Positions 15,902-33,031 of a stretch of DNA of 64,000 bases are shown here, in pieces. This DNA is from an uncultured Pseudomonadales bacterium (GTDB lineage: Bacteria > Patescibacteriota > Microgenomatia > UBA1400 > PJMF01). Location: the NCBI GenBank assembly GCA_964393205.1, contig CAYMSV010000002.1, positions 28,078 through 92,077 on the forward strand, written 5' to 3'. The notes under the pieces were generated by a model, which was given only the letters and a program-made list of their open reading frames with translations, ran no database searches and was not told where the DNA came from. The position numbers and the translations under genes were made by a program. The stretch's first letter is position 1, and every line of letters starts with the position of its first letter.

Positions 15902-15920
15902 TCAAAGCAAGTTCTAAACC

Positions 15921-16355: not shown

Positions 16356-16376
16356 AAATTCCTTTTTTTTAATTAG

Positions 16377-16450
16377 TGGACAATACTGGACTCGAACCAG
16401 TGACCTCACGAATGTGAATCGTGCGCTCTAACCAGCTGAGCTAATTGTCC
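16377..16450 (-). tRNA. tRNA-Val (anticodon CAC)
   Basis: Reverse complement GGACAAT-TA-GCTC-AGCTGGTTA-GAGC-G-CACGA-TTCACAT-TCGTG-AGGTC-ACTGG-TTCGAGT-CCAGT-ATTGTCC-A. All four stems are perfect, with U33, A37 and a TTCGAGT T-loop. CCA is not encoded. Confidence 0.85.
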
Positions 16451-16451
16451 G

Positions 16452-17219: not shown

Positions 17220-17244
17220 ATTAAAAAAGATCAAACAAATATTA

Positions 17245-17273
17245 TTGATTTTCTCGAGTAAAAATGTTATAAT
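17245..17273 (+). promoter_or_regulatory. Candidate sigma70-type promoter for ssrA (-35 TTGATT, 17-nt spacer, -10 TATAAT)
   Basis: TTGATT at 17245-17250 and TATAAT at 17268-17273, about 17 nt upstream of the tmRNA 5' end. Confidence 0.4.
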
Positions 17274-17289
17274 AACTTGTTCTTTAACA

Positions 17290-17691
17290 GGGGATGTATT
17301 GTATTGACGTCAGTCAACTTTAATCATTGCAGATCATCTTTGGTGAAAAGATGTTAAACAACACTAAAAAATAACTGTCAAAAACAGTTTTAAAACAGCA
17401 GTTAATAAAGTCGCCAGTCTTTTTGACTTTGGCTTCGTAGCTGCTCCTGCTTTTGCTTAATTGTAAAAGTAGGCATCTAGTGTTGAACTCTTATCGACGG
17501 TTCACATTAGGTGAAAACCTAGTCGATTAGCAGAAATAAAGAATCAGGTCACTTTATTTCCAAGAATTAGGCCTGGATGAAGCAAAAAAAGTTTGTCTAT
17601 TTACTTCTTGCTTCAAATCGAAAATAAACTAAATCTGTAGATATCGTTAAAGTCAGATTAGCGGACGCGGGAGCAAAACCCGCCATCTCCA
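17290..17691 (+). ncRNA. ssrA: tmRNA (transfer-messenger RNA, SsrA)
   Basis: 5' GGGGATG... pairs with 3' ...CATCTCC-A, forming an acceptor stem with a G3.U70 wobble (the alanine identity element). T-arm GCGGG-AGCAAAA-CCCGC sits at the 3' end. An internal tag frame GUC|GCC AGU ... GCU UUU GCU UAA (17413-17460) is preceded by an in-frame TAA and encodes ASLFDFGFVAAPAFA. The AAGUCGCC context resembles E. coli UAGUCGCA. About 402 nt; CCA is not encoded. Confidence 0.75.
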
Positions 17692-17770
17692 CAACAGCAG
17701 ATCCTTATCTAAAAAATCAGCACTATATTAAAAATAGTGATTTTCTATATCAAAAAATCTATGAAGTTGC

Positions 17771-18268
17771 TTAATTCTTGGATTTAAGTGTCAAACCTAG
17801 ACCAAACACCAATATTCCAAAAGCAAAAATTATAATTGTGTTCTCTAAAGCGCCTGATTCTGGCAAAGTTTCTTCGGTGGCTGTCTCAGCAGAAGGCGTA
17901 CTAAGGCTGGCAACTTCCGCTACATTTATAACTAAGTCTAAAGTTTCTCCACCAGAACTAACTACCAAATCATTTTCACCATAAGAAACTTCCCTAAAAT
18001 TAACTCCCCAATTTCCCTCAACGTCAGCAACAGTATCATTGTTTAAATCAGCAAGTGCTATCTGCACTTCAGCTGAAGGAGAGGCAGTTCCTGTTACTGT
18101 GAAAGTCGTTAAGGTAGTTTCATAAACTTTAACTGTAGACCCCAAACCAACAATAGAATCATTACCTCCTATAGCATCAATCGTAAGAGCACTGGCCAAT
18201 GCTGGCTTAATTAAAAAAATAAGTAAAAATAAAAAAAGTAATTGAAAAGTTTTTATCATTTTTTTCAT
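17771..18268 (-). CDS. Small secreted protein with C-terminal LPESG sorting signal (putative sortase substrate)
   Basis: Signal peptide (MKKMIKTFQLLFLFLLIFLIKPALA). C-terminal LPESG, then hydrophobic helix ALENTIIIFAFGILVFGLGLTL, then basic tail KSKN. Paralog of 24028..24537. Confidence 0.6.
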   Translation of the reverse strand: MKKMIKTFQLLFLFLLIFLIKPALASALTIDAIGGNDSIVGLGSTVKVYETTLTTFTVTGTASPSAEVQIALADLNNDTVADVEGNWGVNFREVSYGENDLVVSSGGETLDLVINVAEVASLSTPSAETATEETLPESGALENTIIIFAFGILVFGLGLTLKSKN

Positions 18269-18331
18269 ACAAGATTTAGCTTAACATTTTTTTAAACATA
18301 AAATCAACTAATTTTAAAAATCTAAAATTAT

Positions 18332-20521
18332 TTATGAAAAACTTTTACTAGCTAAATATTCTTGAATCTTAACTCTAAAAACTTCTCTAGCCTTGCTACC
18401 CTGAGCAGGTCCGACAAAACCAGCCTCTTCTAGTTGGTCCAAAATACGAGCTGCCCGAGCATAACCCACAGACAAGTGACGCTGAATAGCACTAGAAGAA
18501 GCACTATCACTAGTACTAAATAACTGTGCTGCTTCATCAAATCTCTCATCTCGATCAGCCTCTCCCTCTACACTAACGCTAACGGAGCCTCCTACCCTGC
18601 TAACCTGATATTTATTAGTAATTTCTTCCTCATAATTTGGTTTTTTACCTCTAGATTTAAGAAAATCAATCAGTTGATCAATTTCTCTAGCATCAACGTA
18701 AGTGCCTTGAATACGTTGTGGTTTAGCTCTATTTGGAGATAAATAAAGCATATCTCCCTTACCTAAAAGTTTCTCTGCGCCAGGAGTATCTAAAATTACT
18801 CGACTATCAGTCACGCTCGAAACATTGAAGGCAATTCTGGTGGGCATGTTAGCCTTAATTAAGCCAGTGATTACATCAACAGATGGTCGCTGGGTAGCTA
18901 AAACCAAATGAATTCCTACCGCTCTAGCCATTTGAGCAATCCTAGTAACATTGTCTTCCACCTCTTTGGGAGCGAAAAGCATAATGTCTGCCATTTCATC
19001 AATAACAATCACAATATTTGGCATAGTGGCCAAACCAGCTAGCTCATTATAATCTCGAATACTTCTCACTCCAACATCTTCAAGCATTTTATAGCGCTTA
19101 GACATTAGCTCCGAAGCCCATTTAAGAGCCGACACCACTTTATCTGGATCAACAATGACTGGCGTTAACAAATGAGGAATATCTTTATATTTGGTCAACT
19201 CTACTCGTTTAGGATCAACCAAAATTAATTTAACCTCCTCTGGAGTGGCACGAAACAAAATGGAACACAAAAATGAATTAACACAAACAGATTTACCCGA
19301 ACCTGTGGCTCCAGCAATTAATAAATGGGGCATTTCGGCAATGTCTGCCACAATTGGTTTACCAGCTACATCAACTCCTAAACTAACTGCCAATTTTGAA
19401 GGATGTTTTTTTACCACTGGTGAAGATAGCATTGTCTTTAAGGGCACTATTTCAGCACTATGATTTGGTACCTCTACTCCTACCAAATTACGACCAGGAA
19501 TTGGTGCTTCAATTCTTACTTGTCCAGTCGGTGCTGCTAAAGCTAGAGCTAAATCAGTTGACAGCGCTGTAATTTTTGATAAACGAGTTCCTTTACTGAT
19601 ATCTAAAGCATACTGAGTAACTGCCGGACCAGGATTATATTCTGCAACCTTGGCGTTAATGCCAAAAGAATCTAGAGTATTTTCAATAACCTGAGCATTG
19701 GCTTTGACATCACCACGATCAGCTTTTGCTCCTCTCTCTACAGATAATAAAGACAGGGGAGGATAATCCCAAACCATTGGCATAGAAGAAGCATTGAGAG
19801 CTTCTTCTCCTTCTAAACCACCTGAAGATTTGGCAGCTTGAGTTTCTGCCTTGGTCAAAACAGCAGTACTACTAGTTTCATCAAGTTCGATTTCTTCATT
19901 AAAATCGGCTCCTCTCTTGAGAGTTTTCTTAGTAAAAGCTAATTTAGGAATTGAAAAGTGACGAGATTTTTTTATTTCTTTATCAGTTACATCTTCATCA
20001 ACAGATTTCAAACCTTTTTTAGCTAATTTCGCCTTACGACGATTGGCAATTATTTTGCTTAAACCATTAACTAAATCAGTCAAAGAACTCTGGGAAAGAA
20101 TTAAAAAACCAATTAAAGATAAGGAAGCAAACACTATATAAGCACCTATTGTGCTGATTAGTCTTGATAAATTATTGAAAATATTAATCCCAATTTCACC
20201 AGATCGAGATACTCCCATCACCCCAATCATCATTAAAATCACTCCGAGCAAAATTGTTGGCTTAGACCAAGCATGCTTGCTACGAATCATTACTAAACCT
20301 GAAGCAATAAAAACAAATGGTAAAAATAACATGGATAAGCCAAGTTTATCTGCTAAAAAATTGTTAAGAGCAATCAACCATTGTCCTTGTCCACTGAAAG
20401 AGACCAGCACCAAGCTACCAAACATAATTAGCAACACTGCTATTATTGAATAAGTGGTATCGGCTCGCATTTTTAAACGAATTGCTTTACGTTTTTTGCG
20501 ACGAGACTTTCTTTTTGCCAT
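18332..20521 (-). CDS. ftsK: DNA translocase FtsK
   Basis: N-terminal multi-TM region, Walker A GATGSGKSV, Walker B IVIVIDEMAD, and a C-terminal gamma (winged-helix) domain IQRHLSVGYARAARILDQLEEAGFVGP. Confidence 0.9.
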   Translation of the reverse strand: MAKRKSRRKKRKAIRLKMRADTTYSIIAVLLIMFGSLVLVSFSGQGQWLIALNNFLADKLGLSMLFLPFVFIASGLVMIRSKHAWSKPTILLGVILMMIGVMGVSRSGEIGINIFNNLSRLISTIGAYIVFASLSLIGFLILSQSSLTDLVNGLSKIIANRRKAKLAKKGLKSVDEDVTDKEIKKSRHFSIPKLAFTKKTLKRGADFNEEIELDETSSTAVLTKAETQAAKSSGGLEGEEALNASSMPMVWDYPPLSLLSVERGAKADRGDVKANAQVIENTLDSFGINAKVAEYNPGPAVTQYALDISKGTRLSKITALSTDLALALAAPTGQVRIEAPIPGRNLVGVEVPNHSAEIVPLKTMLSSPVVKKHPSKLAVSLGVDVAGKPIVADIAEMPHLLIAGATGSGKSVCVNSFLCSILFRATPEEVKLILVDPKRVELTKYKDIPHLLTPVIVDPDKVVSALKWASELMSKRYKMLEDVGVRSIRDYNELAGLATMPNIVIVIDEMADIMLFAPKEVEDNVTRIAQMARAVGIHLVLATQRPSVDVITGLIKANMPTRIAFNVSSVTDSRVILDTPGAEKLLGKGDMLYLSPNRAKPQRIQGTYVDAREIDQLIDFLKSRGKKPNYEEEITNKYQVSRVGGSVSVSVEGEADRDERFDEAAQLFSTSDSASSSAIQRHLSVGYARAARILDQLEEAGFVGPAQGSKAREVFRVKIQEYLASKSFS

Positions 20522-20609
20522 ATTTTGATCAGATTAGTTAACTCTATTTAAAAGCAAAACTCTTAAAACTGCAAGCAGCAAGGCTAAAAGAACAGTAATT
20601 TAGATAAAA

Positions 20610-22274
20610 CTAAAAATCCCAAATTACCGGTAAAATCATAGGTTCACGACGAATAATTTTGAATAAACGACGCGCTAAACGCTTTTCTAAGCGACGTTTT
20701 AATTCTTCATCTTTGACTTTTCTTCCCAAATCCTGAATGATAGCTACTGTTTCTTTTTCAATATATTTGACTACCTCATCAGCTTCTTTCATGAAAACAA
20801 AACCTCGTGAAATAACTTGCATTTTATTAAAATCGAACTGATTTTTAAATCTAGGTAACAATAAAACAATAATCCCAGCTTTAGATAAATTTAAACGATC
20901 AGATAAAACAACTGGACCAACATCACCTATACCTAAACCATCAATGGTTTTTGCAGACAGAGGAATTTCTTTAGCCACCGACACTCCTTGTTGATCAATT
21001 TGTAAGAGCTCTCCACTCTTAGGTATTAAAATTTGCCAATCTTTATAATCCAAAGGCTTGGCTACCGTTTTCTTAAATAGAGTTCGATGACGATCAGCAC
21101 CTCCAATAGGCATAATAAACTTAGGTTTGAGCAGTTTTAGCATTAATTCCTGCTCACTACGACTAGCATGACCAGAACGATGAATATCAGGACGAATGTC
21201 TGGATAAACAACCTCCACATCATCAGCTGCTAATTGATCAATAGCTGTGTAATAAGGAATTTCGTTACCTGGAATTACATCGGCTGAAAAAATCACTTTA
21301 TCACGATTACTAATCTGGACTATTTGGTGGTCGCCGTAAACAGCTCTGACTAAAGAAGAGCCTTCTTGACCCTGACTACCAGCTATAATTACACAGAGCT
21401 TATTATCTGGCAATTGATTAATTTTCTTCTTGTCTAAAAGTAAACCTTTTGGAATATTCAAACTTTTAGATTGAGCAGCACTTTTTACATTTTGTTCTAC
21501 GCTGCGACCAACAAAAACCACTTTTCTACCCAATTTACTACAGGCATCAACCGTTTGTTGAATACGATGTAAGTGAGAACTCATTAAAGTTACTAAAATC
21601 TTACCTTCAACACCTTGCATTTCTCTAAATAAAGCAGGACCAACTGTAGATTCAGAGGGAGTCCAATCATCTCTTTCAACTCGTAAACAATCTAAAGAGG
21701 CCATTAATAAGTCACCATCTTGACCAATTTTCTCAACAAAATCCATATCACTAAGCCGCCCATCAACAGGTTGTTTATCTAATTTAAAATCACTACCGTG
21801 GTAAATTTTACCCACAGGTGTCTCTAATAAAATATGTTTTGAATCGGGTACGGAATGAGTAACAGCAATCAATTGAAATTTAAAAGATTGACTTAAATTT
21901 AATTGTTGTCGATCATTTAAAACCTGAATTTTCCGATCAAGCTTCTTATCCCGTAAGCGATCATGAGCAAATTGAGCTGTCAATAGAGAAGCATAAATTG
22001 GAAAATCTGGCAAATTCGGCAATAGATAGGGTAAGGCTCCAATATGGTCGTCATGACCATGACTCAAGATCATACCAACTATCTTTGCTCCTGACTCTAA
22101 TTGATTTAATAAATAACTAATATCTGGAATAAGGGCATCTACCCCAGGCATATACATATCAGGGAAACCGATACCACAATCAATCAGCAATATTTCTTGT
22201 TGATATTGATATAAATAAAGGTTTTGGGTAACCCTACCCATACCTCCTAAAGCTAAAAAGTTAAGTTTTGACAT
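20610..22274 (-). CDS. rnj: Ribonuclease J (metallo-beta-lactamase/beta-CASP family)
   Basis: HxHxDH motif (ILSHGHDDHIGALP), beta-CASP region, and C-terminal RNase J domain. Start taken at ATG 22272-22274 (MSKLNFLALGG), which abuts the stop of the upstream UDG gene. Confidence 0.85.
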   Translation of the reverse strand: MSKLNFLALGGMGRVTQNLYLYQYQQEILLIDCGIGFPDMYMPGVDALIPDISYLLNQLESGAKIVGMILSHGHDDHIGALPYLLPNLPDFPIYASLLTAQFAHDRLRDKKLDRKIQVLNDRQQLNLSQSFKFQLIAVTHSVPDSKHILLETPVGKIYHGSDFKLDKQPVDGRLSDMDFVEKIGQDGDLLMASLDCLRVERDDWTPSESTVGPALFREMQGVEGKILVTLMSSHLHRIQQTVDACSKLGRKVVFVGRSVEQNVKSAAQSKSLNIPKGLLLDKKKINQLPDNKLCVIIAGSQGQEGSSLVRAVYGDHQIVQISNRDKVIFSADVIPGNEIPYYTAIDQLAADDVEVVYPDIRPDIHRSGHASRSEQELMLKLLKPKFIMPIGGADRHRTLFKKTVAKPLDYKDWQILIPKSGELLQIDQQGVSVAKEIPLSAKTIDGLGIGDVGPVVLSDRLNLSKAGIIVLLLPRFKNQFDFNKMQVISRGFVFMKEADEVVKYIEKETVAIIQDLGRKVKDEELKRRLEKRLARRLFKIIRREPMILPVIWDF

Positions 22275-22276
22275 AT

Positions 22277-22936
22277 TTAAAATAATTCCTCTCTCAATTG
22301 TTCTTTTAATTTCAAAGTTTCTTGTTGTGAATCTATCCACTTTATAATTTTTTTAATTTTTTTGAAGTCTTCAATAAATGATTTTTTAACCCGACCAGAC
22401 CTCAGAGCTGCTGCTGGATGATACATTGGTAAAACAAATAAATCTTGATTTTGCCACCTCAACTTATGTAATCGACCGTGTATTTGTGAAATTTTAACAT
22501 CTTCTAAAAATTTGGCCATACTAAAACGTCCTAAGGTAACAATTAATTTAGGTTGAATTAGTTCAATCTCTTTATCTAAAAAAGGTTTAAAAGCTAAAAT
22601 TTCTTTAGGTGAAGGGTCTCGATTATTTGGTGGACGCACCTTTACAATGTTGCTAATAAAAACTGTTTCGGCTGGTAAATCAATTTCTAAAAGAGTTTTA
22701 CGCAATAATTGTCCTGAACGACCAACAAAAGGACGTCTTTCCAAAGCCTCATGATAACCAGGAGCCTCACCAATCAGCATAATTTCAGCATCTTGTTTGC
22801 CTTCACCATGAACTATATCCTCAGCTCGATTAGCTAAAGGAAGTATATTTACATTTTTTTCAAGTAAAGATTCTAATTTAGATAAATTTTTAAGTTCAAT
22901 TAATAGTTTCTCCACTGATAAATCAGTCTTTGACAT
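22277..22936 (-). CDS. Uracil-DNA glycosylase, family 4
   Basis: GEAPG...E...PFVGRSGQLL motif typical of family-4 UDG. HPAA near the C-terminus. Confidence 0.8.
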   Translation of the reverse strand: MSKTDLSVEKLLIELKNLSKLESLLEKNVNILPLANRAEDIVHGEGKQDAEIMLIGEAPGYHEALERRPFVGRSGQLLRKTLLEIDLPAETVFISNIVKVRPPNNRDPSPKEILAFKPFLDKEIELIQPKLIVTLGRFSMAKFLEDVKISQIHGRLHKLRWQNQDLFVLPMYHPAAALRSGRVKKSFIEDFKKIKKIIKWIDSQQETLKLKEQLREELF

Positions 22937-22955
22937 ATCCCAATTCTAACACAAA

Positions 22956-24020
22956 CTAATAGCTAGGTAGAAAAATCTTAACATTATCCGGACCTATAAT
23001 CACTTCTTTAAAACCTCTTTCTACAATAATTCGCGCGGCTTTACGCACCGCACCTTTAAGAGTGCGCTGCAATGTTCTCACTCCGGCATCAAAACCTAAA
23101 GGACGTACTAGCGTTGGCCAAATAGCCTCATCAATCTTAAACTGATTTTCTTTTAAGCCAGCTTCTTTCATAACACCTGGCAAAATATACTTTTTTGCAA
23201 TCACAATTTTCTCTTCGTCACTATAAGAAGGCATATCAATTCGCTCCATACGATCAATTACTGCTGTTGCAATACGTCTAGTATTATTACAAGTAGCAAT
23301 AAAAATAGCCTGACTTAAATTAACTGGATAATTAATATAGTTGTCTACAAAGGCATGGTTCTGAGCAGGATCTAATAGTTCTACTAAAACCCCCATAATG
23401 TCATTGTTAGCTTCATCAGCAGCTCGATCAATTTCATCTAGTAAAATTACGGGATTCATTGTCTTAGCTTCACACAAACCCTGAATAATTGCCCCTGGTT
23501 GAGCTTCTAAAATTAATCTTGATTCTCCACGTAATTCTTTAGCAGATACCATACCACCAATAGGAATACGCAATATCTGTCGTCCCAATGCTTCTGCTAA
23601 AGAATAAGCAAAAGTGGTTTTTCCAGTTCCCACTAAACCAACTAAAAGTAATATTGGAGCAGAAAATTCTTGATTGGTAAAATTTTGTTTTTGTAAATTA
23701 AGAATTGCTAAATATTCTAAAAAACGATCTTTAACCTCTTTTAAACCATAATGATGTTTATCAAAAATCGCTTTAGCCGCCTGAATATCCAGTGTATCTT
23801 CACTCTTTTGAGCAAAAGGGATTTTGATCACCCAATCTAAATAACGAGAAACTTTGTCATATTTTTCATCATAATTTCCCAACTTAACGCTACGTTCTAG
23901 AGAAACTAATTCTTTTTTTAGTTTTAATAACAGTTCTTCTGGTAATTGAATCTGTTCAATTTTAGCTCTTAACTCGTCAAGTTCCTGATTTAAAATTTCT
24001 TCAGAATTAATTTGAGACAT
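22956..24020 (-). CDS. Lon-like AAA+ ATPase module lacking the N-terminal (LAN) and C-terminal protease domains
   Basis: Collinear with LonA residues ~230-590: coiled-coil, then HYGLKEVKDRFLEYLAI, Walker A GLVGTGKTT, Walker B ILLDEIDR, sensor-2 region DAGVRTLQRTLKGAVRKAARIIV. The ORF ends where the S16 protease domain would begin. Start taken at the internal ATG (MSQINSEE) to avoid overlap with the upstream gene. Confidence 0.7.
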   Translation of the reverse strand: MSQINSEEILNQELDELRAKIEQIQLPEELLLKLKKELVSLERSVKLGNYDEKYDKVSRYLDWVIKIPFAQKSEDTLDIQAAKAIFDKHHYGLKEVKDRFLEYLAILNLQKQNFTNQEFSAPILLLVGLVGTGKTTFAYSLAEALGRQILRIPIGGMVSAKELRGESRLILEAQPGAIIQGLCEAKTMNPVILLDEIDRAADEANNDIMGVLVELLDPAQNHAFVDNYINYPVNLSQAIFIATCNNTRRIATAVIDRMERIDMPSYSDEEKIVIAKKYILPGVMKEAGLKENQFKIDEAIWPTLVRPLGFDAGVRTLQRTLKGAVRKAARIIVERGFKEVIIGPDNVKIFLPSY

Positions 24021-24027
24021 AAAAAGA

Positions 24028-24537
24028 TTAAAATTGCTTTGCTTGAAGTGTAAATCCCAGTCCAATGCTTAACATTGCTAAGGCCAAAAACAAAATAGTA
24101 GTAGTAGTTGAACCAGCTTCCGGCAAAGTATCTTCAGTACTACTAATCGTAGCTTCTTCAGATTCTGTTGCTTCAGCAACCTCACCAATAGTTAAAACGA
24201 AATCTAATGTTTCATCTCCAGATTCTAAATTAAATTGATGATCACCTTCAGCCAAAGATGAAACCAAGTTTGTCCAACCCCCTTCTGCATCAGCTGTCGC
24301 TGTTTGAGTTGAATCGTTAATCAAGATAGATATGGTAGCAGAGGGAGAAGCTAAACCAGTTAATTCGAAAGTTCCACCAGAATAAGTATAACTTTTCAAG
24401 CTTCCTCCCAGATCTAAATCAGACACATCCATAGCTCCTAAACCAGTGATTTGCAAAGAAGAAGCTAAAACCTTTTGAAAAAAAAGCAAGGGAAAAGCGA
24501 GTAATAACAATGTAGTAACAATTAAAATTTTTCTCAT
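24028..24537 (-). CDS. Small secreted protein with C-terminal LPEAG sorting signal (paralog of 17771..18268)
   Basis: Signal peptide. Shares SGG..L.G.ASPSA...I...D...AD.EG.W and G.ETLD.V..I.EVA blocks with the LPESG protein. C-terminal LPEAG, then hydrophobic segment STTTTILFLALAMLSIGLGFTL, then QAKQF. Confidence 0.6.
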   Translation of the reverse strand: MRKILIVTTLLLLAFPLLFFQKVLASSLQITGLGAMDVSDLDLGGSLKSYTYSGGTFELTGLASPSATISILINDSTQTATADAEGGWTNLVSSLAEGDHQFNLESGDETLDFVLTIGEVAEATESEEATISSTEDTLPEAGSTTTTILFLALAMLSIGLGFTLQAKQF

Positions 24538-24560
24538 ATATCCTATTCAGTCTAGCATTT

Positions 24561-25499
24561 TTATTTTTTTTGCACAGCTAGTAATTCCAACATTTGATTA
24601 CGACGTAATAAACCAGTTTTACCTCCGTAAAACCTCACAACACTGCTTGCATTACGAACTCCCCAAACAATTGCCTCCTCCACCTTTCGATTATCCAATA
24701 GAGCAGCAATATAGGCAGCAGCAAAAGAGTCGCCAGCACCTGTATTGTCTACAGCACTACCAGATTGCCCCTCATAAATAAATTTCTTTTTACCATACAA
24801 GTAGACTTCTCCACCTTTCTTACCCATAGTCACAATTACTTGTGGAAAATGAGCTAGAATTTCTTCCTGAACTTCAGCTAACAACAACCATTCCTGTTGA
24901 TTAACAAAAAATACTTCACAGGGAATTTTATCTAAATCAAAAGTTCTATTTACCAATAGCTCTATTTCACTTTTACCAGGATTCCATGATAACTTAGTGT
25001 CTTGGTCTTTGATTAAACTATTAAAAATTTTCAACAAAGTATTTTTTTGACCAGCAATACTAGATAAGTGAACCCAACTGGCTTGAGTTAACCAAAAAGA
25101 GGGAATGTCATAAGGGTCAAGCATTGAAGCTGCACCTCGATGAGTCATGGCTACTCGATCTCCACCTTTAGTTACTAATAGCACACTTCCTCCAGTTCTT
25201 TCTAATTTTTCTCTAATCAGTAACTGTGTACTGACACCCTCTCGTTCAAAATCTCTCACTATTAAATCAGAAAATTCGTCATGACCAGTTTCAGAAATAA
25301 CTGCCGTTTTATAACCCAAACGAGCTAAAGCTACTGAAGTATTACTGGCTCCACCACCAGTGAAAATGTGGAAATCATTTAAATCTAATTTGTCTCCATA
25401 AGTCAAAACATGTTGTTGTTTGTTACGATCAGTCTCTAGATCTTTAGAGCTAATAAAAATGTCAACTAGTGAAGATCCAATGCTAATACAATCGTACAT
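24561..25499 (-). CDS. PfkB-family carbohydrate kinase (ribokinase-like)
   Basis: GGGASNTSVALARLG and C-terminal DNTGAGDSFAAAYIAAL (anion-hole/GAGD) motifs. Confidence 0.8.
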   Translation of the reverse strand: MYDCISIGSSLVDIFISSKDLETDRNKQQHVLTYGDKLDLNDFHIFTGGGASNTSVALARLGYKTAVISETGHDEFSDLIVRDFEREGVSTQLLIREKLERTGGSVLLVTKGGDRVAMTHRGAASMLDPYDIPSFWLTQASWVHLSSIAGQKNTLLKIFNSLIKDQDTKLSWNPGKSEIELLVNRTFDLDKIPCEVFFVNQQEWLLLAEVQEEILAHFPQVIVTMGKKGGEVYLYGKKKFIYEGQSGSAVDNTGAGDSFAAAYIAALLDNRKVEEAIVWGVRNASSVVRFYGGKTGLLRRNQMLELLAVQKK

Positions 25500-25563
25500 A
25501 GGCAGTTAAAACATTGTACAAGATAAAGAAGTCAGTTTGCAAGACTTGAGATTATTTTTGATC

Positions 25564-26184
25564 TTATTCTAAACGTTTTTCCATTTCTTCTTCAAATAAA
25601 TGAAGAGCTATTTTAAACTCTTCTAAATTATCAACAATTCGATATACTTTTGATTCTTTATAACCAATTAAAAAATGTTTGTGAATGACATCCATCACTT
25701 CATGCCAAAAATGACCATATAAAATCATTGGCTTATGATTACCATAATAAAGATGAGCCAAAAGCCAAGCAGTAGCCCATTCACTTAAAGTACCAGTTCC
25801 ACCTTGAAAACAAACAAAAAGATCAGAATTGTCCATTAAACCAAACATCCGTTCTATATAATTACTGGTTTTAATTTCCCGGTCAACTATATTATCTCCA
25901 TCACGACCCTCAAACTCTGGCATATTAACTGGATTAAAAGTAACTGCCATTGTCTTGCCATTTGTGGATTGAGCTCCTTTGGTAGCAGCTCCCATGACTC
26001 CTGGACCCCCACCGTTAACTACAATTTTCTTTTGACTGGCCACATAGGCAGCTATTTCAAAAGCAGCTTGACAAACTGGATGGTCATCATCTAGATCTGC
26101 GCCTCCATAAAAAGCAATTTTTTCTACCTTACACAAGCGATTCGCTCCCGGAACCACTATTTTTTTTCGTTCTTCTTTGGTCAT
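25564..26184 (-). CDS. LOG-family protein (TIGR00730; cytokinin riboside 5'-monophosphate phosphoribohydrolase-like)
   Basis: NGGGPGVMGA and FQGGTGTLSE motifs characteristic of the LOG/lysine-decarboxylase-like family. Confidence 0.75.
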   Translation of the reverse strand: MTKEERKKIVVPGANRLCKVEKIAFYGGADLDDDHPVCQAAFEIAAYVASQKKIVVNGGGPGVMGAATKGAQSTNGKTMAVTFNPVNMPEFEGRDGDNIVDREIKTSNYIERMFGLMDNSDLFVCFQGGTGTLSEWATAWLLAHLYYGNHKPMILYGHFWHEVMDVIHKHFLIGYKESKVYRIVDNLEEFKIALHLFEEEMEKRLE

Positions 26185-26852
26185 AAAAGCTCCTTTTTCA
26201 AATTATTAAAAGCCAAATCAAAATTTTGAGCATTAAATAGTGCTGATCCAATAGCTACCTGATCAACCCCAGATTTTTCTAAAATTTTGAGATATTCAGC
26301 TTTAACTCCGCCATCCACACTAATTCTTAAGCGCTTGTCTATTTTCCCTGACAGAGTTTTTAGTTCTTTAATTTTATCAAGCACCAACTTATTAAAAAAT
26401 TGACCCTGTTGACCAGCTTCAACTGCCATCAACAATACCTGGTCCAAATTTTCCCAAGAAGAATCCTCTATATTCTCAAGAGGAGTAAAAAGGTCTAGTG
26501 CTAAACCTGTTTGCCAACCGGATTTTTTAACTTCTTCTAAAAAATCTGATTGTTGAGACATCTTTTCAATCTGACCTATCACCGACCTAGTTGGCAATCG
26601 CTTACCACATTCAATTAACTCCCAAACATAATCCATTGGCTCTTCCGTCATTAAATGAAAGTCAATTGATAATTGAGCAAAATCAAAATCTATTAAGTCA
26701 CTTGGACTGACAGTAACATTATCGGCAAACAAAGCATCAATAATATCTATTTGCACAACTTTAATGTCCGATTGTTGTTTTACTAAATCCAACTGCTGGG
26801 CAAAAGTAGCAAGACTGTCAGTTAAAATAGCTGGGTTAATTTGCATTAGCAA
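26181..26852 (-). CDS. Ribulose-phosphate 3-epimerase-like (divergent)
   Basis: TIM-barrel-like pattern with IDFHLM (His-x-Met), MAVEAGQQGQ(F), and ISVDGGV (DGG) matching Rpe landmarks. Divergent. Confidence 0.55.
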   Translation of the reverse strand: MLMQINPAILTDSLATFAQQLDLVKQQSDIKVVQIDIIDALFADNVTVSPSDLIDFDFAQLSIDFHLMTEEPMDYVWELIECGKRLPTRSVIGQIEKMSQQSDFLEEVKKSGWQTGLALDLFTPLENIEDSSWENLDQVLLMAVEAGQQGQFFNKLVLDKIKELKTLSGKIDKRLRISVDGGVKAEYLKILEKSGVDQVAIGSALFNAQNFDLAFNNLKKELL

Positions 26853-27297
26853 TCCTTACTTGTTCTTCATAATCAGTAATTTGCTTAATTCTTCTTAGGT
26901 GTCTTGTTTCTTTACTGGGATTTGTTTTCATAATTGTTAACAAACAATCTAAAACTTTCTGCTTAGTCAAAAAATCAGCTCCAAAAGCAAAAACATTGGC
27001 ATGATTATCTTCAACAGCATGTTTTGCAATTTTTTCATCATAAACATCCACTGCTCGAATACCCTTGACCTTGTTAGCCGCTATCACCATCCCCGATCCA
27101 GAACGACAAAACAACAGACCAATACTGTCATCATTGTCTTGAGTAATTCTTTCTGCTAATTTGAAAGCAAATTGTGGATAATCGTCATCTGGATCAAGTT
27201 CACTGGGACCCAAGTCAATAACTTGGTCTTTTAAAAAAAGTTTAATTTCTTCTTTGAGTTTAAATCCTCCATGATCACTAGCAATATAAATTTTCAT
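26836..27297 (-). CDS. rpiB: Ribose-5-phosphate isomerase B
   Basis: MKIYIASDHGGFKLKEEI... matches the RpiB/LacAB N-terminus. Start taken at the internal ATG (27295-27297); the longer ORF adds a hydrophobic leader. Confidence 0.8.
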   Translation of the reverse strand: MKIYIASDHGGFKLKEEIKLFLKDQVIDLGPSELDPDDDYPQFAFKLAERITQDNDDSIGLLFCRSGSGMVIAANKVKGIRAVDVYDEKIAKHAVEDNHANVFAFGADFLTKQKVLDCLLTIMKTNPSKETRHLRRIKQITDYEEQVRIANAN

Positions 27298-27335
27298 AAA
27301 CTTATCATAACAAATAAATAACAAAACCAATAAAG

Positions 27336-27369
27336 AAAAACCCCGCATTAATAAAAAGGCGGGGTTTTA
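27336..27369. terminator. Bidirectional rho-independent terminator hairpin
   Basis: aaaaaCCCCGC-attaataaaaag-GCGGGGtttt: GC-rich stem flanked by an A-run and a T-run. Downstream of the minus-strand 66-aa ORF. Confidence 0.6.
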
Positions 27370-27387
27370 ATTGACAAATGAGAAAAA

Positions 27388-27588
27388 TTATTTTTTCTTC
27401 AAAACTGGCATGCCAGTGCGAGATGTCTCAACAACCATATAACCGGCTGGGACTTCGCTCAGGGAACCATCACGAATGTCACGTGCAAAAAAGTAAATGG
27501 TTTGCACACGACCATTTTTTAAGGTCACATCACGAGTGTGAAGATAATAAGTTTGACCCTTTTTATTGGTGTAGCTAAAAGCTGCCAT
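27388..27588 (-). CDS. Hypothetical small protein (66 aa)
   Basis: Intact ORF followed by a strong terminator. No recognisable motif. Confidence 0.4.
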   Translation of the reverse strand: MAAFSYTNKKGQTYYLHTRDVTLKNGRVQTIYFFARDIRDGSLSEVPAGYMVVETSRTGMPVLKKK

Positions 27589-27716
27589 ACTATTCTCCTT
27601 CTTCCTGACTCCTGGCCAGGATAATTGTTAATTACTAATTCCTAGAGTAGCATACTTGACTAGTATATCAAGAAGCAATTTTAATTTTTAACTATCAAAA
27701 TATATCAATGTATATC

Positions 27717-28229
27717 TTAATTTTCGATAATTCCTCGCAAGAGAGCATCCTCAAGGAGTAAATCCGACTCTGTGCTGACTATTACTTCTATAGGTAAAAC
27801 TTCAGCAGGCACTGAAGCTGAGCCAATAAAGCCAGCCTTAGAATAACTAAGCGTGAAAACTTTTTTCTTAGCATCGCCATCGATTTCTTTAAGCCAAACT
27901 GCAAATGCTTCATTACTGTCTGGTAAATTAGCAGTTACTGTAAAATTGAGTTTATCTTCTACTAGTTGGTAACGAATTTCACCACTAGCTTCTCCTACAG
28001 CCATCATTTCAGCCGTGGAAAAATCAGTTGTTCCTCTAATAATACTTTCTTCTTCTTCTTGAGTAAGAGTTGTAATTTCTAGGTCATTACTTAACAAACT
28101 AGCTCCTTCTTCCGCCACCCTAGTGGAGTACCAGCGAACAAACATAAAAACGACAAAAGCAAAAGCTAATAGTGGGAAGATATAAGGGGAAACTTTTTTA
28201 AATTTTTCTTGCATGAGACCTTCGGCCAA
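27717..28229 (-). CDS. Hypothetical membrane-anchored protein
   Basis: N-terminal TM helix (YIFPLLAFAFVVFMFV), then a soluble ~130-aa domain. Confidence 0.45.
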   Translation of the reverse strand: MAEGLMQEKFKKVSPYIFPLLAFAFVVFMFVRWYSTRVAEEGASLLSNDLEITTLTQEEEESIIRGTTDFSTAEMMAVGEASGEIRYQLVEDKLNFTVTANLPDSNEAFAVWLKEIDGDAKKKVFTLSYSKAGFIGSASVPAEVLPIEVIVSTESDLLLEDALLRGIIEN

Positions 28230-28330
28230 AGCCAGTAACTGCTATATTGTGATACTATTTTGAAGTATAAATAACAAGCTGTCAAGATCAGTTAATTTTA
28301 ATATTATGGGATTAAATTTTACTCAAAGTT

Positions 28331-28897
28331 TTAGCTTTTTTGCCAATCCCTACCATACCATAAACCAATTGCTAATTTAGCAATGGCCACGTATTCCTCA
28401 GTGCGATCAATAAAACCCTTAGTTAGAATTCCAATTGCTCCACTTTTACGTTTAAGGTCAAGATCGTTAAATAAATCACCAATTACATGTCCTAATTCTT
28501 GACCAGCTAAAATTCCATCAGCCAAAACCTGTGGCAAACGAAATCTAGCACCACTGGCAGAATAAATATCTCCTTTTTGATCTAGAACACTGATCCAAAC
28601 CGTAGACCACAGTTCTTGATCATTTTTAGCAAATTTTGGACAATAAACTCCACCTTCCGCACCAACAAACAAAACTTCTTCGTCTGGTAGACATAAAGAT
28701 TTTGCCAAAACTATTTTTTTTAAGGCTTTGGCTCGATTAATTGAGCCTTCTAGGGTTTCTTGATCGGTCATTGGTTGCTCCGACACTCCACTAGAAACCG
28801 CTAGTCCGTGCACTTCGATATCAGGATAACTTTCACTAGATGCAATAGTAACAGCATTAATTTTAACTGGATTTTTTGAAGCTACAAAAATTCTCAT
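28331..28897 (-). CDS. Inosine/xanthosine triphosphatase-like, YjjX family (DUF84)
   Basis: MRIFVASKNPVKINAV...SGVSEQP matches the YjjX/non-canonical NTPase family N-terminus. Confidence 0.65.
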   Translation of the reverse strand: MRIFVASKNPVKINAVTIASSESYPDIEVHGLAVSSGVSEQPMTDQETLEGSINRAKALKKIVLAKSLCLPDEEVLFVGAEGGVYCPKFAKNDQELWSTVWISVLDQKGDIYSASGARFRLPQVLADGILAGQELGHVIGDLFNDLDLKRKSGAIGILTKGFIDRTEEYVAIAKLAIGLWYGRDWQKS

Positions 28898-28958
28898 TAT
28901 TTGTCTCCATTGATCACAATTATTTTAAATAAGTTGTTTAATGCTTGTTTCTTTGACA

Positions 28959-29894
28959 TTATTCACTTAAAAAACCTCGCAAAATTAAATCTTCAGCTTC
29001 TCCGGCACTTAAACCTCGACTTCGCAGGTAAAGAATTTGCTCTGCCGACAATTTACCAATTGAAGCCTCATGAGTCAATTGAGCATTAGGGTTTTCCACC
29101 AGTAGTTCAGGAATCAATTCTAACTTAGCACTTTTATCCAACATCAAACCACCACAATCAAGATGACCCTTAGCAGCAGCTTTAGCTATAATTCTGGAGC
29201 GCGCTTTAACTTCAGCACCTTTTCGACCAACTAAACGTAAAGTGGAAATAGCATTGGCGCCCGCCCCATTTAAATAGGCAATATCTGTTAAATTCATTTT
29301 GGTATCTTGACAATTAGCTAATATTTTTAAATCAGAGCGGGCGCCCTTTGCTAAATGAATTTGCGCTTTCAATTGCATTGCCCTGGCTGCTGATTCAATT
29401 TTATAGGTATATTCTAGACTAGCTCCTTGTTCTAAAAAGAATTCATAATTAGTACTAACCTGGTCGTTTTTATCCCAATCATGAACATGCTGATAATATA
29501 AACTAGCTCCCTGGCGCAATAATAATTTGCCTTTAGCCTGATGAGAACGACTTTTTCCTATCACCTTTTCACTAAGCAAGCTGGCCGACTCACAAGTACC
29601 AGTTAAGTCAACATACAATCCAGCTTCTATGACAATAAGATTGTTTAGTTGTTGTTTAGTGCCTGGTTTATCTAGAGAAACGCAACCTAAAAAAGAACAA
29701 TTGGGTTGTTCTTTAATCCAAACAAAATATCCTTCTTTGGGCTTATCAACAAAATACTCTCTAGTCCAAGGGAACTTATCCCAAGCTTCTACCGAACTCA
29801 ACACCTCTGACCCAGACATACTAAGAATCTCTTCAATATGGTGGTCTAGTTGTTTATAAGCAGTTTTTACAGCTTTCGCATTTTTGGTAGCCAT
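28959..29894 (-). CDS. sufD: Fe-S cluster assembly protein, SufB/SufD family
   Basis: C-terminal LSAEQILYLRSRGLSAGEAEDLILRGF is the SufBD signature. The N-terminus overlaps the sufC 3' end by 41 nt; an internal start is possible. Confidence 0.7.
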   Translation of the reverse strand: MATKNAKAVKTAYKQLDHHIEEILSMSGSEVLSSVEAWDKFPWTREYFVDKPKEGYFVWIKEQPNCSFLGCVSLDKPGTKQQLNNLIVIEAGLYVDLTGTCESASLLSEKVIGKSRSHQAKGKLLLRQGASLYYQHVHDWDKNDQVSTNYEFFLEQGASLEYTYKIESAARAMQLKAQIHLAKGARSDLKILANCQDTKMNLTDIAYLNGAGANAISTLRLVGRKGAEVKARSRIIAKAAAKGHLDCGGLMLDKSAKLELIPELLVENPNAQLTHEASIGKLSAEQILYLRSRGLSAGEAEDLILRGFLSE

Positions 29895-30570
29895 ATTTTT
29901 TAATGGTGTTTAATACTTTCTTAACATCTCGACTTTGACAAACTAATTCTCCTTGGCGCAAAATAGCAATGCGATCCGGCTTAATTTCATCTAAAACTGC
30001 TCCAGAGTGAGTAATGATTAATAAAGCTATTTTTCTCTTTTTTAATTCTTTCTTGAGGGCAGTTAGAACTTTTCCTAAATTCTCAATGTCCAAACCGGAA
30101 TCCAACTCATCAATAACTAACAACTTAGGGTTTTGATTCAAGACTTGAACTAATTCGGCAATTTTCTTTTCCCCACCAGAGAAATTACTATTAATTTCTC
30201 TAAATAAAAGAGAATCTGCTAGCTCATAATCATAGTCACCGTCGTGAATTTCTTGGATTAAATTTAGTAGAGTAAATAGTTCAACTCCCTTAATTGCTGG
30301 AGCTTGTTGCCAAACAAAAGCTAAACCTGATTTGGCACGTTCTTCTGGTTTAAGAGCAATTAAATCTTGATCAGCAAATTTAATTGAACCAGCACTCACT
30401 TGATAATTGTCATCACCTAGCAAAACCCTAACCAAAGTTGATTTGCCAGCTCCATTAGCACCCATTAAAGCAACTAGTTCTCCACTATTAATAGACAAAG
30501 AAATATTTTTGAGAATTAATTTCTTATCAGCCTCTACATTTAGATTATTAATTTTAAGTAAATTTTTCAT
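29854..30570 (-). CDS. sufC: Fe-S cluster assembly ATPase SufC
   Basis: ABC ATPase with Walker A GANGAGKST, signature FSGGEKK, Walker B LLVIDELDSG. Unusual Cys-rich C-terminal tail QKCESCKNCL. Confidence 0.85.
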   Translation of the reverse strand: MKNLLKINNLNVEADKKLILKNISLSINSGELVALMGANGAGKSTLVRVLLGDDNYQVSAGSIKFADQDLIALKPEERAKSGLAFVWQQAPAIKGVELFTLLNLIQEIHDGDYDYELADSLLFREINSNFSGGEKKIAELVQVLNQNPKLLVIDELDSGLDIENLGKVLTALKKELKKRKIALLIITHSGAVLDEIKPDRIAILRQGELVCQSRDVKKVLNTIKKYGYQKCESCKNCL

Positions 30571-31058
30571 TATTTATTAAAAGCTTTATTTAAAATATTT
30601 TTAACAAACTGACCTCTTTCACCACCAAAATCATAACTGTTTAGATCATTTAAATTGACCCATGCAAAATCCTGATGTTCTGTTGAAGTTTTGATTTCTG
30701 CCCGATCGCTTTCTGAAAAATCTAAATACCAACCACAATTAATGCTATAAAGATCTCGATCAGCTTCAAAGTAACTAGCAAAATAAATAAGATGCTCAAA
30801 ATCAAAAAGACCTGGTTCAACTAATAAGTTACTCTCTTCTTTGACTTCTCTAGCAATATCTAATTGATGTAGATTAGCAACACTGTCTTGTTCTAGACTG
30901 GGCCACTCGGCGTTGCCTCCTGGTAAATCCCAGGCATTGGGACGAGAAATTGAATCACTACTGCGTTTTAAAATTAAAGCCTCTTTTTGATCCTGATTAA
31001 CTCTTACTATTGCTACCTTGTGCAAAAATTTAACCTTCTGAGTTAGTTGTTGCTTCAT
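30570..31058 (-). CDS. NUDIX hydrolase
   Basis: Nudix box LPGGNAEWPS...REVKEESNL. Confidence 0.65.
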   Translation of the reverse strand: MKQQLTQKVKFLHKVAIVRVNQDQKEALILKRSSDSISRPNAWDLPGGNAEWPSLEQDSVANLHQLDIAREVKEESNLLVEPGLFDFEHLIYFASYFEADRDLYSINCGWYLDFSESDRAEIKTSTEHQDFAWVNLNDLNSYDFGGERGQFVKNILNKAFNK

Positions 31059-31086
31059 AAAAACTTTCTGTCACTGATTATAACAG

Positions 31087-31626
31087 TTAAATGTTCAGTA
31101 ATTTAAAAGCCAAAATTAATTCACATCTAACTTGTTCAAAGATTTCTTTTTGCGACATTTTTTTAATTTGACCTAAAGTAAACCAAGCAATCTCTTCTGA
31201 TTCGTCATTCTGCTGTAAGGTAGATAAATCAACTTCACTAGCTAATAAATATTGAAAATCTAGGTGTTGTTCACAACCTTTTAACCAATCCTTTTCTCTT
31301 TTCTTTTGACCAGCTAAGCGATATTGATAGTTTTTTTTTGAAATCCAATGCAAGTTAATACTAATCGGCACAGGATGGAAAGAAATATTTTTATCTTGTT
31401 GATCAAAATTTAAATCAAAATTAGGTGGACTAATAGCTTTCACTTTTAATCCGGTCTCTTCAAAAAATTCTCTTTCAGCTGCTTGATGTAAAAATTCTCC
31501 TTCTTCTAAATGACCGCCCGGAGTTAACCATGTTTTTAATTTTTTATGTTTTAACAACAAAACTCGCTGATCAATAATTAACACTCCAGAGGCAGTGTAA
31601 CAAAATTGAGGTTTAGCTTTATTCAT
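31087..31626 (-). CDS. NUDIX hydrolase
   Basis: Nudix box TPGGHLEEGEFLHQAAEREFFEETGL. Confidence 0.75.
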   Translation of the reverse strand: MNKAKPQFCYTASGVLIIDQRVLLLKHKKLKTWLTPGGHLEEGEFLHQAAEREFFEETGLKVKAISPPNFDLNFDQQDKNISFHPVPISINLHWISKKNYQYRLAGQKKREKDWLKGCEQHLDFQYLLASEVDLSTLQQNDESEEIAWFTLGQIKKMSQKEIFEQVRCELILAFKLLNI

Positions 31627-31633
31627 AATTTTT

Positions 31634-32218: not shown

Positions 32219-32265
32219 AGGAAACTATCCTAAAACAAGTTTCTGTTGACTGCAAGCTCAAACTC

Positions 32266-32898: not shown

Positions 32899-33031
32899 AG
32901 GTCTCCTTTTTTAATTATCAATTAAATACTGTACTGATATTATAGCAGAAAAGTCACTAATAATCAATTATAAAAAAGATTGATATATAAATAAAAAATA
33001 TTTATAGCAAACAATAATTTTACCCAAATAT

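What the first reader, a model, noticed from the sequence alone, without database searches (positions are those of the whole stretch)
24028..24537. Paralogous LPEAG-anchored protein 6 kb from the LPESG protein; two dispersed copies of the same small surface module
The 169-aa protein shares several collinear sequence blocks with the 17771..18268 protein (SGG..L.G.ASPSA, AD.EG.W, G.ETLD.V..I.EVA). It has the same architecture: signal peptide, one domain, LPE[A/S]G, hydrophobic helix, short polar tail. Both are embedded in housekeeping operons (ftsK; pfkB kinase and Lon-like ATPase), not next to the sortase. Their shared sorting-signal architecture suggests a small family of surface-anchored proteins. 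I cannot tell whether they are adhesins, pilin subunits or envelope structural proteins.
Basis: seen in the sequence. Interest (0 to 1): 0.5.

Follow-up and report, generated by a model that had tools for sequence, protein, structure and literature searches.

The report
Two small sortase-anchored Ig-domain surface proteins
Two related small genes in this ultra-small (CPR/Microgenomates-type) bacterial genome each encode a single immunoglobulin-like domain with a signal for covalent attachment to the cell wall by sortase, which is a real but fairly ordinary kind of surface protein whose exact role is unknown.

Summary
Both ORFs exist, on the minus strand: A at 24028..24537 (169 aa, LPEAG) and B at 17771..18268 (165 aa, LPESG). 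They are true paralogs (40% identity, E=1e-25).

Each has four parts:
- a Sec signal peptide ending in AxA;
- one bacterial Ig-like (Big_13/Bap-type) beta-sandwich;
- a disordered acidic or Ser/Thr-rich stalk;
- a cell-wall sorting signal of LPx[A/S]G, a hydrophobic helix and a Lys/Arg tail.

In 48 family members (down to about 26% identity), 46 keep LPx[AS]G. Position 4 is never Thr. Only six columns are invariant across the divergent family, and three of them are the L, P and G of the motif.

A catalytically intact sortase lies at 9234..10190. A class A PBP and YceG show that a wall exists.

The slot between pfkB and the Lon-like AAA+ gene holds a family member in 15 related loci. The slot after ftsK is filled only in close relatives. 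The small protein is always the fastest-evolving gene of its block.

The most likely reading is a wall-anchored single-domain surface protein. It is not a pilin. One ortholog is already annotated by NCBI as an LPXTG-anchor protein. This is a new member of a known kind, of modest interest.

The parts
24028..24537 (-). Paralog A: 169-aa precursor. It has a signal peptide, one Big_13-type Ig-like domain, an acidic stalk, LPEAG, a hydrophobic helix and the tail AKQF.
   Evidence: The ORF is. It is 40% identical to B with E=1e-25. There are 23 orthologs at 59-96% identity. The AF2 core has pLDDT 72-89 and is a beta-sandwich. AGGA lies 6 nt upstream of the ATG.
24463..24537 (-). Signal peptide of A (aa 1-25, MRKILIVTTLLLLAFPLLFFQKVLA), with predicted cleavage after Ala25.
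   Evidence: This is read from the sequence: a basic n-region, a hydrophobic core, and V-L-A at positions -3 to -1. Ala25 is at least 90% conserved. AF2 models residues 2-19 as a helix. No dedicated signal-peptide predictor was available.
24184..24462 (-). Ig-like (Big_13/Bap-type) domain of A, aa 26-118.
   Evidence: Pfam Big_13 scores 18.8 bits, below the cutoff of 27. Profile positions ~54-108 match 5-52 tandem repeats in giant adhesin-like proteins, with summed E-values down to 1e-97. The top PDB sequence hit is the Bap repeat 7dm0, E=8e-7. Foldseek finds Ig-like accessory domains.
24127..24183 (-). Acidic/Ser-Thr stalk of A (aa 119-137), predicted to be disordered.
   Evidence: pLDDT is below 50 for residues 121-142. 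The region varies strongly in length and sequence among relatives.
24112..24126 (-). Sorting motif LPEAG of A (aa 138-142).
   Evidence: The codons ttg ccg gaa gct ggt are read. L138, P139 and G142 are invariant in alignments A1 and A2. Position 4 is Ala or Ser in 46 of 46 motif-bearing members.
24028..24111 (-). C-terminal hydrophobic helix and tail of A (STTTTILFLALAMLSIGLGFTLQAKQF), plus the stop codon.
   Evidence: AF2 models residues 144-168 as a helix. 44 of the 46 motif-bearing members have 1-3 Lys/Arg in the last 8 residues.
17771..18268 (-). Paralog B: 165-aa precursor with the same architecture. Its signal peptide is aa 1-25, nt 18194..18268. Its tail is KSKN.
17852..17866 (-). Sorting motif LPESG of B (aa 135-139).
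   Evidence: The codons ttg cca gaa tca ggc are read. The motif lies in the low-confidence linker 123-139, just before helix 140-164.
9234..10190 (-). Sortase (318 aa), the presumed processing enzyme. It has an N-terminal membrane anchor and a catalytic domain at aa 182-316.
   Evidence: PF04203 scores E=2.3e-19. His225 (FGHS), Cys299 (LVTC) and Arg307/308 are at least 97% conserved in 120 homologs. The nearest solved relatives are class A sortases, E~1e-5. It reaches no NCBIfam class A-F cutoff.

Best explanation
A and B are paralogous substrates of the genome's housekeeping-type sortase.

Proposed pathway:
1. Each precursor is exported through Sec.
2. Its signal peptide is cut after Ala25.
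3. The C-terminal hydrophobic helix and Lys-containing tail hold it in the membrane.
4. The sortase (Cys299) cleaves between Ala/Ser and Gly of LPE[A/S]G.
5. The new C-terminus is transferred to the peptidoglycan precursor.

The mature product is about 115 residues: one bacterial Ig-like (Big_13/Bap-type) domain on a flexible acidic stalk of about 20 residues, covalently fixed to the thin wall of a CPR (Pacebacteria/Microgenomates-type) cell.

Because the stalk is short, the domain probably sits at or just above the wall surface. Its most likely job is contact or recognition, meaning adhesion to a partner cell, to matrix, or to another envelope layer.

What is shown and what is inferred:
- Shown: the paralogy, the fold, the conserved motif, and the presence of sortase and wall-synthesis genes.
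- Inferred: export, cleavage, wall linkage and the adhesive role.
For: - Paralogy is 40% identity, E=1e-25.
- 46 of 48 family members carry LPx[AS]G 25-32 residues from the C-terminus, and 44 of those 46 have 1-3 K/R in the tail.
- L, P and G of the motif are three of only six invariant columns in a 20-sequence alignment reaching 28% identity, while the preceding stalk is hypervariable.
- The motif lies in a predicted disordered segment, directly before a helix.
- The sortase is in the same window and has a conserved His/Cys/Arg triad.
- A class A PBP (62076..63965) and YceG (7808..8803) show that peptidoglycan is made.
- The exact A, B and sortase sequences each list a longest contig of 311,230 bp. 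Several ortholog sets also share longest-contig lengths.
- The Ig-like fold and homology to adhesin repeats are supported.
- The small protein is the fastest-evolving gene of its block. In L017, for example, PfkB is 51%, the Lon-like protein 66% and the small protein 26% identical. That is typical of exposed surface proteins.
- LPX(A/S)G is a recognised occasional sortase motif in Firmicutes (PMC2657157, PMC3436756).
- Sortase is near-ubiquitous in Microgenomates (PMC6744442).
- NCBI names ortholog P0010 'LPXTG cell wall anchor domain-containing protein'.
Against: - There is no experimental evidence of cleavage or anchoring.
- The curated anchor HMMs are below threshold. PF00746 scores 15.5 against a cutoff of 20, and TIGR01167 scores 9.2 against 15.9.
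- Position 4 is never the canonical Thr.
- A's tail has only one basic residue.
- Distant relatives P0146 and P0175 have acidic tails, and P0159 lacks a clean LPxxG.
- The sortase fits no defined class, so its specificity is unknown.
- The stalk of about 20 residues is much shorter than the wall-spanning regions of typical Gram-positive LPXTG proteins, so surface exposure is uncertain.
- The adhesive function is inferred only from the domain type.
Confidence: 0.72

Rival explanations
1. These are plain type I membrane proteins. The C-terminal helix is a permanent transmembrane anchor, and LPx[AS]G is a conserved juxtamembrane hinge that no sortase processes.
For: The anchor HMMs are sub-threshold. 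Some distant relatives have acidic or atypical tails, and one lacks the motif. The stalk is short. No sortase gene is adjacent.
Against: Strict L-P-x-[AS]-G conservation next to a hypervariable stalk is hard to explain as a hinge. The motif-to-end distance of 25-32 residues and the basic tails fit the classical sorting signal. A conserved, catalytically intact sortase is also present in the window.
Confidence: 0.17
2. These are subunits of a sortase-assembled pilus. A and B would be pilins, such as a shaft and a base, polymerised by the sortase.
For: Both are small Ig-fold proteins with LPxxG-type signals, as basal pilins are (own knowledge: FctB, SpaB). Lys48 is at least 90% conserved in the A and B clades.
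Against: Lys48 is not conserved in the wider family, and no YPKN-type pilin motif or E-box was seen. The sortase scores no better for class C than for classes D or E, and its best PDB matches are class A. Many related loci show only one copy within the DNA held. The genes are not clustered with the sortase.
Confidence: 0.04
3. The proteins are wall-anchored in the same way but have a structural role. They would be a core envelope component, for example a tether between peptidoglycan and an outer protein (S-) layer, rather than an adhesin.
Against: Fast sequence divergence is more typical of exposed or interacting surfaces. No S-layer gene or partner was identified here. The fold matches are generic Ig-like.
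Confidence: 0.3

Closest known systems
Sortase A substrates with LPXTG / LPX(A/S)G cell-wall sorting signals in Firmicutes (e.g. the two S. aureus LPxAG proteins; S. uberis SUB0207/SUB0241)
   Same: They share the tripartite C-terminal signal: a pentapeptide, about 20 hydrophobic residues and a basic tail. They share an N-terminal Sec signal. The A/S variant at position 4 is documented (PMC3436756, PMC2657157). A sortase with the His/Cys/Arg triad is present.
   Different: In this family position 4 is Ala or Ser in all 46 motif-bearing members and never Thr. The host is a CPR/Microgenomates-type genome. The sortase fits no class A-F model. The protein is minimal, with one domain and a stalk of about 20 residues.
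Big_13 (PF19077) / Bap / 'Ca_tandemer' bacterial Ig-like repeats of giant adhesins (Bap, MpIBP, SiiE, Lap)
   Different: Those proteins carry long tandem arrays of 600-7000 aa and are often secreted by T1SS or anchored by other signals. Here a single copy forms the whole ectodomain. A and B themselves are below the Pfam and NCBIfam cutoffs.
EF2685/EF0750 family of small sortase-dependent surface proteins (NF053819)
   Same: These are also small sortase-dependent proteins. A weak match covers the C-terminal stalk and anchor (E=0.028 for A and 0.13 for B).
   Different: The scores of 13-15 bits are far below the cutoff of 47. The match covers only the low-complexity stalk and anchor, not the domain. 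A and B are not members.
Basal/minor pilins of sortase-assembled pili (e.g. FctB, SpaB; own knowledge)
   Same: These are small Ig-fold proteins carrying a sorting signal, sometimes a non-canonical one.
   Different: There is no pilin motif, no lysine conserved across the family, no class C sortase and no pilus gene cluster.

Membership tests
Sortase-dependent cell-wall-anchored surface proteins (LPXTG-type) | N-terminal Sec signal peptide | tested here: met
   This is read from the sequence. Both have a basic n-region, a hydrophobic core and AxA-type sites (VLA|SS, ALA|SA). Ala25 is at least 90% conserved. AF2 models the N-terminus as a helix. No dedicated predictor was available.
Sortase-dependent cell-wall-anchored surface proteins (LPXTG-type) | C-terminal sorting signal: an LPXTG-like pentapeptide, a hydrophobic stretch and a positively charged tail | tested here: met
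   LPEAG and LPESG are each followed by about 20 hydrophobic residues and the tail AKQF or KSKN. 46 of 48 relatives keep LPx[AS]G 25-32 aa from the end. This is the variant LPX(A/S)G, not the canonical Thr.
Sortase-dependent cell-wall-anchored surface proteins (LPXTG-type) | Passes the curated anchor HMMs (PF00746 Gram_pos_anchor, TIGR01167) | tested here: not met
   For A, PF00746 scores 15.5 bits against a cutoff of 20, and TIGR01167 scores 9.2 against 15.9. B has no hit. 4 of 33 relatives hit PF00746 at E<=0.01.
Sortase-dependent cell-wall-anchored surface proteins (LPXTG-type) | A sortase and peptidoglycan synthesis are encoded in the same genome | tested here: met
   The sortase at 9234..10190 scores PF04203 E=2e-19 and has a conserved H225/C299/R307. 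A class A PBP lies at 62076..63965 and YceG at 7808..8803.
Sortase-dependent cell-wall-anchored surface proteins (LPXTG-type) | Cleavage within the motif and amide linkage to peptidoglycan | not testable with these tools
   This needs biochemistry or proteomics.
Big_13 (PF19077) bacterial Ig-like domain | Scores above the Pfam gathering threshold | tested here: not met
   A scores 18.8 bits against a cutoff of 27, and B has no Big_13 hit. However, 13 of 33 family members hit at E<=0.01, the best at 4.6e-8. A precomputed Big_13 hit is on record for P0165, and a weak one for P0183.
Big_13 (PF19077) bacterial Ig-like domain | Ig-like beta-sandwich fold and profile-level homology to the tandem adhesin repeats | tested here: met
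Ca2+-stabilised tandem-repeat adhesins (NF033510 Ca_tandemer) | Tandem arrays of the repeat that score above the cutoff | tested here: not met
   There is a single domain. Scores are 21.1 and 14.6 bits against a cutoff of 50.
Sortase-assembled pilins | A pilin-motif lysine, an E-box, and a class C sortase in a pilus gene cluster | tested here: not met
   No lysine is invariant in the wider family. The sortase scores 35.9 bits against the class C cutoff of 160. It lies 7.6-13.8 kb away, among housekeeping genes.
Sortase classes A-F (for the enzyme at 9234..10190) | Scores above an NCBIfam class-specific cutoff | tested here: not met
   Class E scores 36.6, class C 35.9, class D 34.2 and class F 17.5 bits, against cutoffs of 160-166. 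The best PDB sequence matches are class A SrtA, at only E~1e-5.

The most novel reading that the evidence does not exclude
This small Big_13 protein family may be the conserved core-genome substrate that explains why Pacebacteria/Microgenomates-type CPR bacteria, with genomes under 1 Mb, almost universally keep a sortase. Their unclassified sortase lineage may be specific for LPx[A/S]G rather than LPxTG. That would make it a distinct specificity class with a dedicated minimal surface module involved in the episymbiotic cell surface.
Probability: 0.2. Interest if true: 0.5.

Novelty: new member of a known kind. Interest (0 to 1): 0.3.

Why it matters
CPR/Patescibacteria are thought to live attached to other cells, and their surface molecules are mostly unknown. 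Sortase is reported as near-ubiquitous in Microgenomates (PMC6744442). My literature searches found no paper that names its substrates in CPR.

This is a small, syntenically fixed, fast-evolving protein family with an invariant LPx[AS]G signal. It gives a concrete candidate substrate, and a peptide sequence for testing the enzyme. The tiny single-domain ectodomain is also easy to express for binding studies.

On the other hand, the architecture is a textbook sortase substrate built from a very common adhesin domain. At least one ortholog is already annotated as an LPXTG-anchor protein. The conceptual gain is therefore modest.

Tried and rejected
- **Compositional similarity only.** Rejected, because BLASTP with compositional adjustment gives E=1e-25, and both paralogs have separate ortholog sets.
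- **Lipoprotein anchor.** Rejected, because there is no lipobox Cys in either signal peptide.
- **Other C-terminal sorting systems (PEP-CTERM, GlyGly-CTERM, MYXO-CTERM, LAXTG).** These occur in some giant Big_13-repeat proteins found by the profile. The small family always has LPx[AS]G.
- **More substrates nearby.** A scan of the window and of 18 related loci for any LPxxG/xPx[TAS]G motif plus a hydrophobic tail found only family members and antisense artefacts.
- **The 746-aa protein fused to the sortase gene as a substrate.** It has no C-terminal motif and no family hit.
- **Promoter and terminator scan around both genes.** The counts do not differ from shuffled sequence, so it says nothing about operon structure.
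- **The search for related loci with the broad alignments A2 and A1.** Both failed for lack of a conserved stretch. The A-type-only alignment gave 7 genome loci.
- **afdb50 fold library.** It was unavailable.
- **Literature searches for LPXTG or sortase substrates in CPR.** They found only general statements that sortase is present.

Full report
**1. The observation**

Both ORFs exist at the coordinates given, but on the minus strand. A is 24028..24537 (169 aa) and B is 17771..18268 (165 aa).

BLASTP gives 40% identity over 149 residues, E=1e-25, with compositional adjustment. The similarity is therefore homology, not composition.

A script scan of all ORFs of at least 40 aa found these two as the only ORFs in the 64-kb window with an LPxxG-type motif followed by a hydrophobic stretch near the C-terminus.

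**2. Anatomy**

Each precursor has the following parts.
- A signal peptide covers aa 1-25. It ends VLA|SS in A and ALA|SA in B. There is no lipobox Cys, and Ala25 is at least 90% conserved.
- A beta-rich domain covers about aa 26-118.
- A stalk of 18-20 residues follows. It is acidic in A (EVAEATESEEATISSTEDT) and is Ser/Thr-rich with variable length in relatives.
- The motif is LPEAG (nt 24112..24126) in A and LPESG (nt 17852..17866) in B.
- About 20 hydrophobic residues follow.
- The tail is AKQF in A and KSKN in B.

The AlphaFold2 model of B is confident. Its pLDDT is 92-96 over residues 31-110 and 90 over residues 111-120, and it has eight strands. The model of A is weaker (core pLDDT 72-89) but has the same strand order. 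In both models the stalk and motif are low-confidence or disordered and are followed by a helix.

**3. What the domain is**

Direct Pfam and NCBIfam hits are sub-threshold. Big_13 scores 18.8 against a cutoff of 27, and Ca_tandemer scores 21 against 50.

A profile of 36 family members was searched against 1.8 billion representative proteins and found 1633 hits. Its core (positions ~54-108) matches 5-52 tandem repeats per protein in proteins of 600-7000 aa. These carry assorted C-terminal signals: LAxTG, LPxTG, Cys-rich CTERM types, or none.

Further evidence points the same way:
- The family profile hits the Bap repeats 7dm0 and 6m3a in the PDB, E=8e-7.
- 13 of 33 members hit Big_13 at E<=0.01.

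The ectodomain is therefore a single copy of the bacterial Ig-like repeat that giant adhesins use in long arrays.

**4. The sorting signal**

I tabulated the two window proteins, 37 close homologs and 9 distant small relatives (160-185 aa, down to about 26% identity). Of these 48, 46 have LPx[AS]G at 25-32 residues from the C-terminus.
- Position 3 takes eight different residues.
- Position 4 is Ala in 33 and Ser in 13, and is never Thr.
- 44 of the 46 tails contain 1-3 Lys/Arg.
- One exception is a protein without the C-terminal part (127 aa, no motif in its last 60 residues). The other, P0159, reads LPEELLQSG.

In a 20-sequence alignment reaching 28% identity, only six columns are invariant. 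These are G61, G86 and W88 in the domain core, and L, P and G of the motif, set next to a hypervariable stalk. This is the strongest evidence that the motif is functional and not just the start of a membrane anchor.

LPX(A/S)G is a documented occasional variant of sortase signals in Firmicutes (PMC2657157, PMC3436756).

**5. The enzyme and the wall**

The ORF at 9234..10190 is a sortase (PF04203, E=2e-19).
- His225, Cys299 and Arg307/308 are at least 97% conserved in 120 homologs.
- 892 homologs were found.
- It reaches no NCBIfam class cutoff.
- Its closest solved relatives are class A sortases, at only E~1e-5.

A class A PBP (62076..63965) and YceG (7808..8803) show that the organism makes peptidoglycan.

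The exact A, B and sortase sequences are all recorded with a longest contig of 311,230 bp. Several ortholog sets also share longest-contig lengths (68,206; 41,890; 122,925; 78,495; 25,485; 19,036). This suggests co-occurrence, but that is inferred from the matching lengths and was not read from the contigs.

**6. Organism and context**

The window has 35% GC, and almost all genes from 351 to 49994 are on one strand. Source names for homologs are Candidatus Pacebacteria, Paceibacterota and Woesebacteria, that is CPR/Microgenomates-type.

The slot pfkB | small protein | Lon-like AAA+ (no protease domain) | UDG | RNase J | FtsK holds a family member in every locus examined that covers it:
- L001-L011;
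- L014, L015 and L017;
- L018.

In L017 the small protein is only 26% identical to A. One distant member, P0165, sits elsewhere, next to yqeY.

The second slot, directly after ftsK, is filled only in the window and in L006 and L007. In other relatives it is empty or holds a PMT_2 glycosyltransferase gene.

The small protein is always the most diverged gene of its block:

| Locus | PfkB | Lon-like AAA+ | FtsK | Small protein |
|---|---|---|---|---|
| L006 | 88% | 95% | 96% | A 78%, B 74% |
| L017 | 51% | 66% | not in locus | 26% |

Short gaps are compatible with co-transcription. There are 23 nt between pfkB and A. Seven nt separate A's stop codon from the likely true ATG of the Lon-like gene at 24020. 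The promoter and terminator scan is uninformative, and the uniform strand orientation means an operon is not demonstrated.

**7. Interpretation**

The best explanation is the classical sortase pathway. The protein is exported by Sec and retained by the C-terminal helix and tail. Sortase cleaves after Ala/Ser of LPE[A/S]G, and the product is linked to the wall. This displays one Ig-like domain on a short stalk.

I put about 0.72 on 'sortase substrate'. The biological role is less certain. Domain type and fast evolution favour a contact or adhesion function. The core-genome position, the short stalk and the S-layer-like fold matches keep a structural tether role alive.

A pilin role is unlikely, for three reasons:
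- No lysine or pilin motif is conserved across the family.
- The sortase does not score as class C.
- In many related loci only one copy lies within the DNA held.

A plain membrane anchor without processing remains the main mechanistic rival (about 0.17).

**8. Novelty**

The exact proteins are in public databases as 'hypothetical protein'. Ortholog P0010 is already named 'LPXTG cell wall anchor domain-containing protein' by NCBI and 'LPXTG-motif cell wall-anchored protein' in another source.

Sortase in CPR is known (PMC6744442, PMC7143001). I found no paper that names its substrates. The finding is therefore a correct identification of a new member or small family of a well-known kind. It has a mildly unusual, strictly Thr-free motif and notable synteny. 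Interest is modest.

Noticed in passing
window 10192..12432 (-), with 9234..10190 (-); also L012 7776..10942 and L013 7586..10975: The sortase gene follows, with a 1-nt gap, a 746-aa ORF that has no Pfam or NCBIfam family and appears to have one central membrane segment. The block [~740-770-aa protein | sortase | RuvX | YceG | rpoB | rpoC] is conserved in contigs whose sortase is only 52-57% identical, where the large protein is 33-42% identical. This may be a sortase partner. It has no C-terminal LPxxG.
   Followed up: partly
window 22956..24020 (-) (ORF called to 24065): This is a Lon-like protein of about 354 aa with the Lon AAA+ module and lid (TIGR00763 positions 252-568 of 795) but no protease domain. 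It is conserved at 66-95% identity directly downstream of the small surface-protein gene in all related loci that cover it. The listed TTG start at 24065 overlaps gene A. The ATG at 24020, 7 nt after A's stop codon, matches the 351-354-aa homologs better.
   Followed up: partly
L004 10001..10519 and L018 735..1247, compared with window 17771..18268: In two more distant genomes, the protein in the pfkB/Lon slot (P0036, P0033) groups with the window's B paralog, which sits in the ftsK slot. Bootstrap support for that grouping is 100/100, and the proteins are 55-58% identical to B against 37-39% to A. Either the copy left in the original slot diverged quickly after duplication, or one paralog replaced the other at that slot.
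   Followed up: partly
L001/L002/L009 16289..17671: In relatives that lack a B-type gene after ftsK, that position holds a 460-aa PMT_2-family (protein O-mannosyl/ArnT-like) glycosyltransferase gene. This could be relevant to glycosylation of Ser/Thr-rich stalks, but it was not examined.
   Followed up: no
window 17175..17694 (+): A tmRNA gene (Rfam RF00023, 98.6 bits, 17290..17694) lies convergent to gene B, about 75 nt from its stop codon. ARAGORN starts the gene 115 nt earlier and proposes an unusually long 27-residue tag (VKNSFKTAVNKVASLFDFGFVAAPAFA). The tag call may be unreliable.
   Followed up: no
window 351..49994: Almost every gene over about 50 kb is on the minus strand with very short intergenic gaps. 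For that reason gene adjacency here is weak evidence for functional operons.
   Followed up: no
window 15218..15901 (-): This HTH_25 (RodZ-like) protein has a C-terminal Glucodextran_B Ig-like domain (PF09136, E=5e-8). It is another small envelope-associated Ig-domain protein in the same conserved block, and it is present in the related loci.
   Followed up: no
L005, L006, L008, L010 (record titles): Several GTDB representative MAGs that carry this clearly CPR-type gene block are titled 'uncultured Pseudomonadales bacterium'. This looks like a mislabel in the deposited records.
   Followed up: no
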